Of a stretch of 64,000 bases of DNA, positions 2,511-10,319 are shown in pieces. Origin of the DNA: Candidatus Polarisedimenticolia bacterium (GTDB lineage Bacteria > Acidobacteriota > Polarisedimenticolia > JACPZX01 > DASXTC01); assembly GCA_050747525.1 (NCBI GenBank), contig JBOGOC010000060.1, positions 69,558 through 133,557 on the forward strand. Reading direction: 5' to 3'. A program made the translations under genes and the position numbers. The notes beneath the pieces were generated by a model. The model was given only the letters and a program-made list of their open reading frames with translations, was not told the DNA's origin and did no database searches. The number at the start of each line of letters is the position of its first letter. Positions within the stretch are counted from its first letter, which is position 1.

Positions 2511-4523
2511 ATGACATTCAAGACATCGCAGGGTTCTAAGACCAGGAACATCGTGCTCGTGCTGCTGCTTGCCGCGGGCACGGCGATGCTCACGGGTGGC
2601 CAGGAGGGTCTCGCGTCCAGCGACTCCCTCTCGTTACCGCTGCCTCCCGTCCCGCCACTCCCGCTCCCGCTCCCGCTTCCTCTGCCGCCGCTGCCGCCCG
2701 AGCTGAGCCTGGGGCCTCCGGAGATGCCCACGCTCCCGACGCTGCCACAGGTACTGCCCCCGAACGCGCCCCCCACGTCGGGCTCGACCGAGCTGCCGGC
2801 GACGTCGGCGACCCTGGACGCGAAGATCCTGATCATCTCGGCAGACGGATCCGAGCCGGTGCTCGGAGCGATCCGTCAGGCGGCGGACTACCAAGGGGTC
2901 CCCTACACGCTGTACGTCGCGAGCCGCACGCCGGGCGGATTCACGCCGGAGATGTTGTCCGACGGCGATGCTCACGCGTACTACCAGGGCATCCTGCTCA
3001 CCACCGGTAGTCTGGGGTACTTCAACGGAGCAGCCTGGACCAGCGGGTTCAACATGACGGAATGGCAGACACTGTGGGACTACCAGGCGAAATTCCGGGT
3101 CCGCACCGCGATCGGCTACGTGTTCCCGACCGAGGACTACGGCTACGGCCAGGCGACCGGGTTGGACACGTCCGCGAGCCCCATCGCCGCCTCGCTCACC
3201 TCGTCAGGGCGATCCGTGTTCCCCTACGTGAACGCGGTGAACCCGATCACCATCACGAAGGCCTGGACGTACATGGCGCCTGCCACGGGAAACGGCACGA
3301 CCGTCCTTCTGGCCGACCAGCATGACAATGCCCTGGCGCTGGTCCGCGAGTATCCCGACGGCCGCCAGGTGCTGTCGATGACGTTCGATGGAAACTCCTT
3401 CCTGGTCCACAGCCTGACGCTCGGGTACGGTCTCCTGAACTGGGTGACGGGAGGGCTGTTCGTCGGAGAGCGTCACGTCTACATCACCCCGCAGATCGAC
3501 GACATCTTCCTCGACAATGACGTGTACGGAGGAGGAATCTACCGTCTCACGGCGACGGACTGGTCGGCCGTCACCGCATGGGACACGCAGAAGCGACTCA
3601 ACTCCCAGACGGCCGGCCTGCGCCTTCACATGGCCTTCAACGGCGAAGGCACGACGGGCACCTATTTCCCAGACGGGCTCACCCCGGCGGCGCGACTCAC
3701 GCAGGGCCGGTTCCCCTGGATCAATCACACCTACACCCACGAAAACCTCGACACCGCGAGCTACGACCTCGTCTACCAGGAGATCACGCTCAACAACCAG
3801 ATCGCCACTTCGATGGGATTCACGAACTACGATCGCCGCGCGCTCGTCACTCCCGACGTCTCCGGGCTCTCGAACCCGGAGGCGATGAGGGCTGCGTACG
3901 ACGCCGGCGTCCGCTTCGTGGTGTCGGACACCTCCCGTCCCGGGATGGACACGACCCCGCAGGCCGGTATCCCCAACTGGGAGGAGCCCCGCATCCTGAT
4001 GATCCCGAGGCGGCCGGTCAATCTCTACTACAACGTGACCACTCCATCCGAATGGGTGGCCGAGTACAACTCCTTCTATCGGAGCTACTGGGGGCGGGAC
4101 CTCGCTTACAGCGAGATTCTGGACAAGGAGAGCGACGTCCTGCTCCAGTACATGCTGCGGGGCGAGATCGACCCCTGGATGTTCCATCAGGCCAACCTGC
4201 GCGCCTATGACGGCGTGAAAACGTTGCTGGGGGATCTGCTCGATCGGACGTTGCAGAAGTACGGCAGACTTTTCGTCCTGCCCATCCGCAGCCCGGCCCA
4301 GGTCCAGGTCGGTGCATCCATGAAGGATCGCATGCGGTTCAATGCGGCCGGCGTGCGGGCTTCGTTCACTCCCGAGCAGAGGACGATCACCATCACCGCC
4401 TCGCAGTCGGCCGTGGTGCCCGTCACGGGTCTGTGCAAGGGGACGTACGAGGTGTACGGAGGGCAGTGCATCAGTCGCGTCACTCTCGGGCCCGGACAGT
4501 CGCTCACCTACAGCCTGCAGTGA
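2511..4523 (+). CDS. Secreted polysaccharide deacetylase-like protein (PelA/Agd3-like; NodB-type TFDG and H(T)xxH motifs) with Pro-rich linker
   Basis: ATG at 2511 preceded by GAGGAG. Signal peptide MTFKTSQGSKTRNIVLVLLLAAGTAMLTG; LPLPPVPPLPLPLPLPLPPLPP linker; MTFDGN and NHTYTHENLD motifs resemble CE4/CE18 deacetylase motifs 1 and 2. First gene of a pel-like operon. Confidence 0.4.
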   Translation: MTFKTSQGSKTRNIVLVLLLAAGTAMLTGGQEGLASSDSLSLPLPPVPPLPLPLPLPLPPLPPELSLGPPEMPTLPTLPQVLPPNAPPTSGSTELPATSATLDAKILIISADGSEPVLGAIRQAADYQGVPYTLYVASRTPGGFTPEMLSDGDAHAYYQGILLTTGSLGYFNGAAWTSGFNMTEWQTLWDYQAKFRVRTAIGYVFPTEDYGYGQATGLDTSASPIAASLTSSGRSVFPYVNAVNPITITKAWTYMAPATGNGTTVLLADQHDNALALVREYPDGRQVLSMTFDGNSFLVHSLTLGYGLLNWVTGGLFVGERHVYITPQIDDIFLDNDVYGGGIYRLTATDWSAVTAWDTQKRLNSQTAGLRLHMAFNGEGTTGTYFPDGLTPAARLTQGRFPWINHTYTHENLDTASYDLVYQEITLNNQIATSMGFTNYDRRALVTPDVSGLSNPEAMRAAYDAGVRFVVSDTSRPGMDTTPQAGIPNWEEPRILMIPRRPVNLYYNVTTPSEWVAEYNSFYRSYWGRDLAYSEILDKESDVLLQYMLRGEIDPWMFHQANLRAYDGVKTLLGDLLDRTLQKYGRLFVLPIRSPAQVQVGASMKDRMRFNAAGVRASFTPEQRTITITASQSAVVPVTGLCKGTYEVYGGQCISRVTLGPGQSLTYSLQ

Positions 4524-4529
4524 GCTTCC

Positions 4530-8985: not shown

Positions 8986-10319
8986 TCCATCAGGGAACGC
9001 TTTCGGGCGCCGCCGCCGCGTACGCGACGGGCGCGGCCGTGATGGCGCTACCGTGGGTGGTGACCACGGCGGTGCTCGTGTCCCTTCCAGCTGTCATCGG
9101 CCGAGGCGTGGCTGACTTCACGACTGCCGAGACCGTGGTGAACGTCGCCTACTCGGTCGCGCTGCTCGTGGACGGGCCACTCCAGATCGTCATTTCCCGC
9201 TACGCGGCGGATCGATTGTATGAAAGACGGCTTCGTGCGATCGCCGCGCCTTTTTGCCGCGGTCTCGGTGTGACCTTTGTGCTGTGCCACGTCACCGCAG
9301 CGCTCGCGCTCCTCGCCCTCGGCCTGCCGCCGGGCGCCGCCTTGTGGGGTGGAGCCCTCTCGGCAGCCGTCGGGGCGCAATGGACCGCCTTGTCCGTCGG
9401 CAACGGACTGTGCTCGCCCAGGCTCGTGCTCGGCGCCGTGGGAGCGGGAGCGGCACTGAGCTTCCTCCTGGCGGCGGCCCTCGTCGTCTTCACCGGGCTC
9501 GGCCTGCCGGGATACCTCTTCGGTCTGGTCTCGGGTCAGAGCCTCACGCTCGCGATCCTGCTCGTGGGCATCTTCCGGGCGCTGCCGGACAGCACCGACG
9601 AGAGCGCAAGGCTGCTGCCCGCGTTTCGGGACTACGCATCGCTCGCCGGCGCCGGGCTCGCCTTCAATGCATCGCTGTGGGTCGACAAGCTCGTCGTCTG
9701 GTGCCTGGTCGGCGGCGATACGGGCGGGCTGCACGCCGCGGCATCGACCTTGGCCTGGTTCTCGACCATCCCGTGCCTGGCGTGGATTTTCGTAGAGGTG
9801 GAGACCACGTTTCACCGACGCTTTCGAGCCTTCTATCGGGCCTTGGAGGGCGGAGCATCGCTCCCCGAGCTTCGAAGCGGAGTTCGAACGCTTGCGGGCG
9901 AGGCGGCGCGTCTTCTGGGCGGCGCGGCCCGAGTGCAGGCGGGAGTGATTGTCTTCCTGCAGGTCGCCGCGGGTCCCCTGGCTCGGTGGCTGCGGCTGCC
10001 CGACGGCACGGTCACGCCGTTCCGGCTCCTCCTGATCGCGGCTGGCATGCAAGCCATTACGCTGCTCGGGCTCATTCTCCTTTACTACTTCGATCTTCGA
10101 CGCGAAGCGCTGTTCGCCGCGGGAGTTCTCCTGGTCGCGGTCGCCGTTTGCACGATGGCGGCAGCGGAGTTGGGGCTGCCACCGAGCGTCGGAACGCTGC
10201 TGGGCTGCGCGGTGGGCGCGGTGGTGACATGCCACTGCGTCCATCGCGGAGTGAACGCCGTGCTGCAGCATACGCTCCTCCGGCAGCCGTTGGGTGCCGA
10301 GCGGATAGACCCGGAATAG
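8952..10319 (+). CDS. pelG: PelG-like polysaccharide exporter (MOP/PST-like 12-TM protein)
   Basis: 455 aa (PelG is ~456 aa), 10-12 predicted TM helices throughout, overlaps pelF stop. Last gene of operon. Confidence 0.6.
   Translation: MAGIGWRLDRLIHQGTLSGAAAAYATGAAVMALPWVVTTAVLVSLPAVIGRGVADFTTAETVVNVAYSVALLVDGPLQIVISRYAADRLYERRLRAIAAPFCRGLGVTFVLCHVTAALALLALGLPPGAALWGGALSAAVGAQWTALSVGNGLCSPRLVLGAVGAGAALSFLLAAALVVFTGLGLPGYLFGLVSGQSLTLAILLVGIFRALPDSTDESARLLPAFRDYASLAGAGLAFNASLWVDKLVVWCLVGGDTGGLHAAASTLAWFSTIPCLAWIFVEVETTFHRRFRAFYRALEGGASLPELRSGVRTLAGEAARLLGGAARVQAGVIVFLQVAAGPLARWLRLPDGTVTPFRLLLIAAGMQAITLLGLILLYYFDLRREALFAAGVLLVAVAVCTMAAAELGLPPSVGTLLGCAVGAVVTCHCVHRGVNAVLQHTLLRQPLGAERIDPE

What the first reader, a model, noticed from the sequence alone, without database searches (positions are those of the whole stretch)
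2511..10319. Pel-like operon variant: no pelC, shortened PelB, and PelD reduced to TM+GAF without the GGDEF c-di-GMP-binding domain
Gene order A-B-D-E-F-G with 4-34 nt overlaps indicates one operon.

- In the Pseudomonas paradigm PelD binds c-di-GMP through the RxxD I-site of a degenerate GGDEF domain. Here the PelD-like ORF is 277 aa (4 TM + GAF) and is immediately overlapped by the pelE-like start, leaving no room for a GGDEF domain.
- PelC (OM lipoprotein ring) is absent, although a PelB-like protein with a C-terminal Phe-terminated beta-barrel is present.
- PelA-like protein has a long (LP)n linker and only deacetylase-like motifs (TFDG, HTYTH).

This implies a differently regulated, possibly c-di-GMP-independent, and differently exported Pel-type polymer system.
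Basis: partly seen in the sequence, partly recalled or inferred. Interest (0 to 1): 0.65.

Follow-up and report, generated by a model that had tools for sequence, protein, structure and literature searches.

The report
Pel-type operon with fungal-type deacetylase
This is a real, conserved six-gene operon for making and exporting a sticky Pel/GAG-like sugar polymer. Its regulator protein has lost the usual c-di-GMP-binding domain, and its deacetylase is of the type known from fungi, which makes it an interesting variant of a known system rather than a new kind of system.

Summary
The six ORFs at 2511-10319 are real, tightly packed and conserved in the same order in at least three other contigs.

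- **F and G** are clear PelF and PelG homologues.
- **D** (277 aa) is a true PelD homologue. A profile-profile comparison gives 99.7% probability, with the alignment running from the first membrane helix to the end of the GAF domain. D stops there, so the GGDEF receptor domain is absent. More than 160 relatives have the same length, so this is not a frameshift.
- **B** (478 aa) models confidently as a signal peptide, about 3.5 TPR repeats and a beta-barrel of about 16 strands. Its closest solved structures are BcsC and PelB.
- **pelC** is absent from the operon and was not detected in the 64-kb window.

- A is not PelA-like. It is an Agd3-type (CE18 + CBM87) deacetylase with all four catalytic motifs intact.
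- E, the PelE-like protein, is also shortened.
- The organism does encode c-di-GMP enzymes.

Bacterial agd3 operons with Pel-like parts were noted in 2020, and PelD without GGDEF is known in streptococci.

Verdict: a new variant of a known kind, of moderate interest.

The parts
2092..2510 (.). 419-bp intergenic region between the divergently transcribed RsbR-like gene and gene A; presumed promoter and leader of the operon.
   Evidence: No ORF with coding-like GC3 lies here. No Rfam family matches, including c-di-GMP riboswitches. The sigma-70 consensus scan was uninformative.
2511..4523 (+). Gene A: secreted Agd3-type polysaccharide de-N-acetylase. It has a signal peptide, an (LP)n proline-rich linker, a CBM87 domain and a CE18 catalytic domain.
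   Evidence: Pfam Agd3_CE E 5.4e-37 and CBM87_Agd3 E 1.9e-12. phmmer against PDB 6nwz_A (Agd3) gives E 7.4e-30 over both domains. Motifs kept: CM1 QIDDIF, CM2 HTYTH, CM3 PRRPVNLYYN, CM4 MFHQANLR (with definitions from PMC7229062). No similarity to B. thailandensis PelA.
4530..5966 (+). Gene B: short outer-membrane exporter of the PelB/BcsC type. It has a signal peptide, about 3.5 TPR repeats (residues 38-155) and a beta-barrel of about 16 strands (158-477) ending in Phe.
   Evidence: The AF2 model has pLDDT 87.7. Foldseek top hits are BcsC 9b8a (E 4.6e-16) and PelB in PelBC 9h80_M (E 1e-13, TM-score 0.65 normalised to target); generic porins score around 1e-7. Pfam detects TPR only. The family keeps a length of about 475 aa across 107 homologues.
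5953..6786 (+). Gene D: PelD homologue made of a membrane domain (4 TM helices by homology), a long juxtamembrane helix and a GAF domain. There is no GGDEF domain.
   Evidence: hhalign of short-D family A4 against long PelD family A3 (which includes B. thailandensis PelD) gives probability 99.66%, E 3.3e-25, over 290 columns that end at the C-terminal edge of GAF. A library-wide HMM search reaches TM-GAF-GGDEF proteins. Two of these lie in D-E-F-G order in other pel loci. AF2 and Foldseek recover a GAF fold only.
6783..7415 (+). Gene E: short PelE-like protein with three hydrophobic helices and one cytoplasmic HEAT/TPR-like helical repeat unit.
   Evidence: It sits between PelD and PelF. Weak Pfam HEAT_2 hit, E 0.0017; the PelE-position genes of L008 and L009 show the same weak hit. 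A BLAST chain runs W_E, L005_E, L008_E, L009_E, B. thailandensis PelE. hhalign A5 against A6 gives probability 57%, E 1e-4, over 53 columns. The family keeps a length of about 200-232 aa.
7402..8985 (+). Gene F: PelF, a cytoplasmic GT4 glycosyltransferase and the polymerase of the system.
   Evidence: NCBIfam PelF equivalog NF038011, E 4.8e-136, 454.6 bits against a cutoff of 100. Pfam DUF3492 plus Glycos_transf_1. About 42% identity to annotated PelF of Burkholderia thailandensis.
8952..10319 (+). Gene G: PelG, a polytopic inner-membrane protein and the predicted translocase.
   Evidence: Pfam PelG PF16933, E 2.2e-69, 235 bits against a cutoff of 29, full-length match. About 12 hydrophobic segments.

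Best explanation
This is a functional synthase-dependent exopolysaccharide operon of the Pel/GAG type, from a diderm bacterium (a Polarisedimenticolia MAG, Acidobacteriota).

Proposed mechanism:
1. PelF polymerises a GalNAc-rich polymer, probably alpha-1,4-linked, at the inner membrane.
2. PelG translocates the polymer. Trimmed PelD (membrane domain plus GAF) and trimmed PelE (membrane helices plus one HEAT-like unit) act as the membrane scaffold.
3. In the periplasm, an Agd3-type CE18 deacetylase with a CBM87 module partially de-N-acetylates the polymer and makes it cationic. This enzyme takes the place of the bifunctional PelA.
4. The polymer leaves through a short TPR-plus-16-strand-barrel porin that works without a PelC ring, as BcsC and PgaA do.

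Because the GGDEF domain with its I-site is absent from PelD, the canonical post-translational activation by c-di-GMP binding to PelD cannot operate. Control must lie elsewhere: in transcription, in the GAF domain, or in another receptor.

Shown here: the gene content, the homologies, the domain losses and the conservation of the arrangement.
Inferred: the identity of the polymer, the division of labour among the proteins, and independence from c-di-GMP.
For: - PelF and PelG pass curated cutoffs.
- D is homologous to PelD from the first membrane helix to the end of GAF, and nothing aligns to the GGDEF part. The bridging proteins P0356 and P0372 are TM-GAF-GGDEF proteins located in D-E-F-G loci.
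- A is an Agd3 homologue with all catalytic residues intact. Agd3 acts on alpha-1,4-GalNAc polymers (PMC7229062).
- The model of B is confident and is closest to BcsC and PelB.
- PelB's dependence on PelC is described as unique among these exporters (PMC12141448).
- The six genes keep the same order in L001, L002 and L003 (L003 ends within F), with lengths preserved in more than 100 homologues of each of B and D and 71 of E. This argues for selection on the short forms.
- Short PelD also occurs in other pel-like clusters: L004, L005, L014 and L016.
Against: - There is no experimental evidence for any member of this operon type.
- B, D and E show no direct pairwise similarity to B. thailandensis PelB, PelD or PelE. 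Homology of D needed intermediate sequences. Homology of E is only moderately supported (probability 57%).
- No UDP-GlcNAc 4-epimerase and no GH114 hydrolase lies in the window, so the precursor supply and chain trimming are unaccounted for.
- Only 64 kb of a 173-kb contig, from an incomplete MAG, could be inspected for pelC.
- The organism has c-di-GMP enzymes, so independence from c-di-GMP is not established.
Confidence: 0.7

Rival explanations
1. The system is still controlled by c-di-GMP, through a route other than a PelD GGDEF I-site. Candidates are a transcription factor of the FleQ kind or an unrecognised binding site on the D GAF domain, on E or on F.
For: The same window encodes a PAS-GGDEF-EAL protein at 47431-49503. 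So, unlike streptococci, this organism makes and degrades c-di-GMP. The linker and GAF region of D holds strongly conserved charged residues (R145, R147, D149, R206, D207 are invariant) with no assigned role.
Against: No known c-di-GMP-binding domain (GGDEF I-site, PilZ, MshEN) was detected in A-G by Pfam or NCBIfam. No c-di-GMP riboswitch lies in the leader.
Confidence: 0.3
2. The operon makes a polymer chemically different from Pel, for example a GAG-like heteropolymer containing galactose or some other hexosamine polymer. In that case 'Pel' describes only the synthase ancestry.
For: F is only about 42% identical to proteobacterial PelF. The modification enzyme comes from the fungal GAG family rather than from PelA. 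No epimerase or hydrolase is present to hint at the substrate.
Against: PelF passes the NCBIfam equivalog cutoff by a wide margin. The only characterised CE18 enzyme deacetylates alpha-1,4-GalNAc stretches (PMC7229062), which is the same linkage as in Pel (PMC9135694).
Confidence: 0.2
3. In this genome the operon is switched on transcriptionally by the divergently encoded stressosome-like module (RsbR/S/T, a PP2C phosphatase, a kinase and a LuxR-type response regulator). That control would replace post-translational c-di-GMP control.
For: The module lies directly upstream on the opposite strand and shares a 419-bp intergenic region with the operon.
Against: The adjacency is not conserved. L001 has unrelated genes upstream of the same six-gene operon. 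No binding site or promoter could be identified.
Confidence: 0.15
4. The short D, E and B genes are artefacts or decay products: frameshifts, MAG assembly errors, or a degenerating operon.
For: The sequence comes from a metagenome-assembled genome. Three proteins are each much shorter than in the Pseudomonas paradigm.
Against: The same lengths and gene order recur in independent assemblies from different samples, under different taxonomic labels. An identical contig was recovered from a second data set. The ORFs have coding-type GC3 of 0.73-0.86. Invariant residues are spread along the whole length of D. E begins inside the stop codon of D, which leaves no sequence for a lost domain.
Confidence: 0.02

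Closest known systems
Pseudomonas aeruginosa / Burkholderia pelABCDEFG (canonical Gram-negative Pel system)
   Same: PelF and PelG are clear orthologue-level matches. The D-E-F-G order is the same. D shares the PelD membrane domain (motif PHPxW(I/L)xVLxLAxRYG) and GAF domain. A TPR-plus-16-strand-barrel exporter is encoded upstream.
   Different: - No PelC.
- PelB is 478 aa, against about 1200-1300 aa.
- PelD lacks the degenerate GGDEF/I-site domain.
- PelE is 210 aa, against about 330 aa.
- The bifunctional PelA (CE21 deacetylase plus hydrolase) is replaced by a CE18+CBM87 deacetylase with no hydrolase domain.
Bacterial agd3-containing exopolysaccharide operons noted by Bamford et al. 2020 (PMC7229062; Burkholderia, Moritella, Stigmatella, Deinococcus-Thermus, Actinobacteria)
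   Same: An Agd3 homologue with CM1-4 and CBM87 is encoded next to a cytoplasmic glycosyltransferase and a polytopic membrane protein. The Gram-negative examples also carry homologues of Pel outer-membrane components.
   Different: - Those operons were described only in outline and usually include a GH114 (Ega3-like) gene, which is absent here.
- The paper text read here (section 13 and the passages found by term search) does not describe a compact Agd3-B-D-E-F-G arrangement or the D and E architectures.
- Of the cultured examples inspected here, Burkholderia has a lone agd3 gene (L012) and Deinococcus has a glycosyltransferase, a 480-aa unannotated gene, an epimerase and Agd3; no D- or E-like gene is annotated there, but these genes were not analysed here (L013).
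Streptococcal pel clusters with class IV PelD (PMC7112168, PMC7890745, PMC12345266)
   Same: PelD lacks the GGDEF domain yet is required for Pel-dependent aggregation. This shows that a GGDEF-less PelD can be functional.
   Different: - Streptococci are monoderm, so they have no outer-membrane exporter.
[quoted passage not shown]
- Their deacetylase is PelA_DA (CE26/CBM114).
- They lack c-di-GMP enzymes altogether, whereas this organism has them.
Aspergillus fumigatus GAG cluster (uge3, sph3, ega3, agd3, gtb3)
   Same: It has the same deacetylase family and domain layout (CBM87 + CE18). The predicted product is a partially deacetylated alpha-1,4-GalNAc-rich cationic adhesin.
   Different: It is a eukaryotic cluster with a different synthase (Gtb3). 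It has no PelD, PelE, PelG or outer-membrane porin. It includes GH135 and GH114 hydrolases and an epimerase.
BcsC / PgaA outer-membrane exporters of cellulose and PNAG
   Same: A single polypeptide combines periplasmic TPR repeats with a 16-strand barrel and needs no lipoprotein ring. BcsC is the best structural match to B.
   Different: BcsC and PgaA have much longer TPR regions and belong to systems with different synthases, which are regulated by c-di-GMP.

Membership tests
Pel synthase-dependent system (pelABCDEFG paradigm) | PelF: GT4 glycosyltransferase with an N-terminal DUF3492 | tested here: met
   NCBIfam NF038011 PelF, 454.6 bits against a cutoff of 100. Pfam DUF3492, E 6.5e-76.
Pel synthase-dependent system (pelABCDEFG paradigm) | PelG: polytopic inner-membrane protein | tested here: met
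   Pfam PF16933, 235 bits against a cutoff of 29, covering 1-450 of 452 model positions.
Pel synthase-dependent system (pelABCDEFG paradigm) | PelD membrane domain plus GAF domain | tested here: met
   hhalign A4 against A3 (which includes B. thailandensis PelD): probability 99.66%, E 3.3e-25, 290 aligned columns. Foldseek finds a GAF fold.
Pel synthase-dependent system (pelABCDEFG paradigm) | PelD C-terminal degenerate GGDEF domain with an RxxD I-site that binds c-di-GMP | tested here: not met
   The protein ends about 7 residues after the GAF domain. Template columns 335-498 have no counterpart. Pfam finds no GGDEF even at E<=10. The E gene starts inside D's stop codon.
Pel synthase-dependent system (pelABCDEFG paradigm) | PelE: membrane helices plus a cytoplasmic TPR-like domain, encoded between pelD and pelF | tested here: inconclusive
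   Position and architecture fit. hhalign against long PelE proteins gives probability 57%, E 1e-4, over 53 columns. A transitive BLAST chain reaches B. thailandensis PelE. The protein is 210 aa against about 330 aa.
Pel synthase-dependent system (pelABCDEFG paradigm) | PelC: outer-membrane lipoprotein forming a dodecameric ring | tested here: not met
   The operon has no gap that could hold such a gene. tblastn with B. thailandensis PelC and the L009 PelC-like protein finds nothing in the window. The gene calls for the 6.5 kb either side of the operon show no LpoB-family hit. The rest of the genome could not be searched.
Pel synthase-dependent system (pelABCDEFG paradigm) | PelB: periplasmic TPR array plus a C-terminal 16-strand barrel | tested here: met
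   Met at the level of structure: AF2 pLDDT 87.7; Foldseek to PelB 9h80_M gives E 1e-13. No sequence-level similarity to B. thailandensis PelB. The TPR region has about 3.5 repeats rather than about 19.
Pel synthase-dependent system (pelABCDEFG paradigm) | PelA: bifunctional CE21 deacetylase and alpha-1,4-N-acetylgalactosaminidase | tested here: not met
   B. thailandensis PelA has no match in the window (best E 0.07). Gene A against PelA gives a best E of 0.82. Gene A belongs to CE18 instead.
Pel synthase-dependent system (pelABCDEFG paradigm) | Product is partially deacetylated alpha-1,4-GalNAc | not testable with these tools
   This needs polymer isolation or hydrolase sensitivity assays.
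CAZy CE18 / CBM87 (Agd3 family) | Catalytic motifs CM1-CM4 (Agd3 D377, D378, H510, H514, R613, M666, H668) | tested here: met
   In the alignment to 6nwz: QIDDIF (D330/D331), HTYTH (H407/H411), PRRPVNLYYN (R500), MFHQANLR (M557/H559). Motif definitions are from PMC7229062.
CAZy CE18 / CBM87 (Agd3 family) | N-terminal CBM87 module preceding the CE domain | tested here: met
   Pfam PF25116, 47.8 bits against a cutoff of 27.6. The phmmer domain spanning residues 102-380 aligns to the Agd3 CBM region.
CAZy CE18 / CBM87 (Agd3 family) | De-N-acetylase activity on alpha-1,4-GalNAc | not testable with these tools
   This needs an enzyme assay.
PelD class IV (streptococcal, GGDEF-less) | N-terminal degenerate SDR domain preceding the membrane domain | tested here: not met
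   D begins with the first membrane helix at about residue 12. There is no SDR or epimerase Pfam hit.
Gram-positive pelDEA(DA)FG | No outer-membrane components, and a PelA_DA (CE26/CBM114) deacetylase | tested here: not met
   An outer-membrane barrel protein, B, is present. The only solved-structure relative of A at E<=0.01 is Agd3.

The most novel reading that the evidence does not exclude
The window represents a widespread lineage of minimal Pel/GAG-type secretion systems that has not been characterised experimentally. It occurs in uncultivated diderm bacteria (MAGs labelled Acidobacteriota, Eisenbacteria, Binatia, Polyangia).

In this reading:
- The c-di-GMP receptor domain of PelD has been lost even though the host keeps c-di-GMP signalling. 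The remaining GAF module senses a different ligand, or the complex is constitutively active.
- The PelC ring is dispensable.
- The deacetylase is the bacterial ancestor type of fungal Agd3. This would give a concrete bacterial donor architecture for the proposed horizontal origin of the fungal GAG cluster.
Probability: 0.3. Interest if true: 0.6.

Novelty: new variant of a known kind. Interest (0 to 1): 0.45.

Why it matters
Pel and fungal GAG are chemically similar cationic GalNAc adhesins that underlie biofilm formation. Pel is the textbook case of post-translational activation by c-di-GMP through PelD, and of outer-membrane export that depends on PelC.

A conserved diderm operon that keeps PelF and PelG but lacks both the GGDEF receptor and PelC, and that uses the fungal-type deacetylase, does three things:
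- It defines a minimal gene set for this class of machine.
- It offers a natural experiment on what the PelD membrane and GAF core does on its own.
- It strengthens the evolutionary link between bacterial Pel and fungal GAG biosynthesis.

It also affects annotation. B, D and E are currently labelled 'hypothetical' or 'TPR protein' in public records, so such loci are missed by searches based on PelC or on the PelD GGDEF domain.

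Tried and rejected
- **Frameshift or truncation artefact for D.** Rejected: the length is conserved in 162 homologues, the E start overlaps D's stop, and the same contig appears in a second data set.
- **Direct sequence and profile comparison of B, D and E with B. 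thailandensis PelB, PelD and PelE.** Nothing significant. A profile of D against PDB sequences hit only coiled coils, not PelD. Homology of D was established only through intermediate TM-GAF-GGDEF proteins.
- **c-di-GMP riboswitch or other Rfam element in the leader (1800-2800).** None found.
- **pelC, pelA, GH114 and galE homologues elsewhere in the window, by tblastn.** None found.
- **Promoter and terminator consensus scans.** At background level, so uninformative.
- **Exact-sequence look-up of NCBI's B protein (P0121).** Not on record. The look-up of D (P0001) worked.
- **A conserved link to the upstream stressosome module.** Rejected as a general feature, because L001 has different neighbours.

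Full report
**Observation**

The region 2511-10319 holds six same-strand ORFs with coding-type GC3 of 0.73-0.86:
- A: 2511-4523
- B: 4530-5966
- D: 5953-6786
- E: 6783-7415
- F: 7402-8985
- G: 8952-10319

The junctions are a 6-nt gap at A/B and overlaps of 14, 4, 14 and 34 nt at B/D, D/E, E/F and F/G. The window matches, at 100% identity, a contig of a Candidatus Polarisedimenticolia (Acidobacteriota) MAG. NCBI's gene calls on that contig agree with these ORFs, except that D starts 27 nt later.

**Core synthase**

F passes the NCBIfam PelF equivalog model (454.6 bits against a cutoff of 100) and has DUF3492 plus GT4 domains. G is a full-length Pfam PelG match (235 bits against a cutoff of 29). 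F is about 42% identical to annotated PelF of Burkholderia thailandensis. That organism's plasmid-borne pelABCDEFG operon (L006) served as the canonical reference.

**Gene D**

Pfam and NCBIfam give nothing significant for D (GAF E 0.015). A profile search of PDB sequences did not reach PelD. Direct comparison with B. thailandensis PelD shows only the TM2 motif.

A library-wide HMM search with the family profile found 230 cluster representatives. Most are 265-411 aa long and have no GGDEF domain. At E of about 1e-8 to 1e-6 the search also reached proteins of about 470 aa with a TM-GAF-GGDEF architecture. Two of these lie immediately upstream of PelE-like, PelF and PelG genes (L008 and L009). 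A third, P0355, aligns to B. thailandensis PelD over the membrane and GAF regions (E 2e-6).

Profile-profile alignment of the short family (A4) against these long PelDs plus B. thailandensis PelD (A3) gives probability 99.66% and E 3.3e-25. It spans 290 columns, from the first membrane helix to the C-terminal edge of the GAF domain. The final 165 or so template columns, which are the GGDEF domain, have no counterpart.

The AF2 model (pLDDT 75.7) shows the membrane helices, a long juxtamembrane helix and a GAF-like alpha/beta domain. Foldseek returns only GAF domains, including PelD 4eu0 at rank 16.

The 162 close homologues are 238-308 aa long, most of them 275-300 aa, and E begins inside D's stop codon. 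D is thus a genuine PelD homologue lacking the c-di-GMP-binding domain. It is not a frameshift.

**Gene B**

The AF2 model is confident (pLDDT 87.7). It shows a signal peptide, seven or eight TPR helices (residues 38-155) and a barrel of about 16 strands ending in ...HVDF. The best structural matches are BcsC (E 4.6e-16) and PelB from the PelBC cryo-EM structure (E 1e-13). Both sit well above generic porins. The family keeps a length of about 475 aa. Sequence similarity to B. thailandensis PelB is undetectable.

**Gene E**

E has three hydrophobic helices and a C-terminal HEAT-like unit. Its family is 200-232 aa long. Longer relatives (342-377 aa) hold the same position in L004, L005 and L014. 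A BLAST chain links them, through L008 and L009, to B. thailandensis PelE. hhalign gives probability 57% and E 1e-4 over the HEAT-like repeat. E is probably a truncated PelE. This is the weakest assignment of the six.

**Gene A**

A matches Pfam Agd3_CE (E 5e-37) and CBM87_Agd3 (E 2e-12). It also matches the crystal-structure sequence of Aspergillus fumigatus Agd3 (6NWZ, E 7e-30) across both domains. All catalytic motifs defined for CE18 are intact:
- CM1 QIDDIF
- CM2 HTYTH
- CM3 PRRPVNLYYN
- CM4 MFHQANLR

. A has no similarity to B. thailandensis PelA. It carries a signal peptide and an (LP)n linker, and it has no hydrolase domain.

Three different esterase families are now known to deacetylate alpha-1,4-GalNAc polymers: CE21 (PelA), CE26 (B. 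cereus PelA_DA) and CE18 (Agd3) (PMC12022489, PMC13254593, PMC7229062). This operon uses the fungal-type one.

**Missing parts**

No pelC lies in the operon. None was found in the window by tblastn with two PelC queries, or in the gene calls for 6.5 kb on either side. No GH114, PelA or GalE homologue is in the window. The remainder of the MAG could not be searched.

**Conservation and diversity**

The same Agd3-B-D-E-F-G order recurs in a JGI metagenome contig (L001), an Eisenbacteria MAG (L002) and a Binatia MAG (L003, which ends within F).

More distant short-PelD loci (33-35% identity for L004 and L005) have different accessory genes:
- L004, L005 and L014 have a divergent GH114 gene and a 625-723-aa TPR-barrel protein.
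- L016 has a Wza-like Poly_export protein, epimerases and GH114 genes.

A locus whose PelD carries GGDEF (L009) also has a PelC-like gene. So GGDEF-less PelD is a broad feature of pel-like clusters in uncultivated diderm bacteria. In the few loci inspected it goes together with the absence of PelC, but the sample is small.

**Regulation**

The window encodes a PAS-GGDEF-EAL protein at 47431-49503. Unlike streptococci, then, the host has c-di-GMP turnover. The leader contains no riboswitch. In this genome a stressosome-like module with a LuxR-type response regulator is divergently encoded upstream, but not in L001. What replaces PelD-mediated activation remains open.

**Comparison with the literature**

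- Bamford et al. 2020 (PMC7229062) reported bacterial Agd3 homologues in uncharacterised operons with a glycosyltransferase and a polytopic membrane protein. In Gram-negatives these operons also held homologues of Pel outer-membrane components.
- Whitfield et al. 2020 and later work (PMC7112168, PMC7890745, PMC12345266) showed that streptococcal PelD lacks GGDEF (class IV, with an SDR domain) and is still required. They stated that in all studied Gram-negatives PelD has the three-domain architecture.
- The PelBC structure paper calls the PelC ring a unique and essential feature of Pel export (PMC12141448).

The present operon combines known themes in an arrangement that I did not find described:
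- a diderm system;
- a PelD with only the membrane and GAF domains, without an SDR domain;
- no PelC;
- a short PelB and a short PelE;
- a CE18 deacetylase.

It is a new variant of a known kind, not a new category.

**Verdict**

The best explanation is a functional minimal Pel/GAG-type secretion operon (confidence about 0.7). Independence from c-di-GMP and PelC-free export are inferred, not demonstrated. Interest is moderate (0.45).

Noticed in passing
window 347-2091 (- strand), continuing upstream of the window (L010 2202-6049): A stressosome-like module is divergently transcribed from the operon. It comprises RsbR-like (1135-2091), RsbS-like STAS (738-1124) and RsbT-like kinase (347-748). 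Outside the window it continues with a PP2C phosphatase, an RsbU_N-HATPase kinase and a LuxR-type response regulator. The adjacency is not conserved in L001.
   Followed up: partly
window 10000-12000: A patch of lower GC content (0.565-0.60, against 0.65-0.69 elsewhere) lies directly downstream of pelG. It contains a 349-aa ORF on the minus strand (10357-11406) with no Pfam family and only a negligible sub-threshold NCBIfam hit. It may be foreign DNA.
   Followed up: no
window 47431-49503 (-): A PAS-GGDEF-EAL protein (EAL E 2e-72, GGDEF E 5e-36). It shows that the organism has c-di-GMP metabolism even though its PelD lacks the receptor domain.
   Followed up: partly
window 15642-21545 (-) and 21452-23920 (+): A giant 1967-aa protein with RCC1 repeats, an NPCBM-associated domain and an M11 (gametolysin-like) peptidase domain. 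Next to it lies a TPR-CHAT protein.
   Followed up: no
window 43695-45718 (-): Pilin-like genes (PilX_N and an N-terminal methylation motif), suggesting a type IV pilus or type II secretion pseudopilin cluster.
   Followed up: no
L016 3569-17065: A distant short-PelD cluster (D-E-F-G) is flanked by a Wza-like Poly_export protein, an NTP-transferase, two epimerases, a TPR protein and two GH114 genes, one of them fused to a Hint domain. This is a different export solution for the same synthase core.
   Followed up: no
L009 1-7957: A pel locus whose PelD carries GGDEF also encodes a PelC-like (LpoB-family) protein, a GH114 enzyme, a 716-aa unknown protein and two separate TPR proteins. In the few loci inspected, the presence of PelC tracked with the presence of the PelD GGDEF domain.
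   Followed up: partly
window 5953-6786 (alignment A1): The D family has a very strongly conserved stretch, LRxRVDRTSxSLSFLRDVAxRLEGxDPVAAAE. It spans the end of the juxtamembrane helix and the start of the GAF domain and includes invariant R145, R147 and D149. Its function is unknown. It is a candidate ligand-binding or partner-binding site.
   Followed up: no
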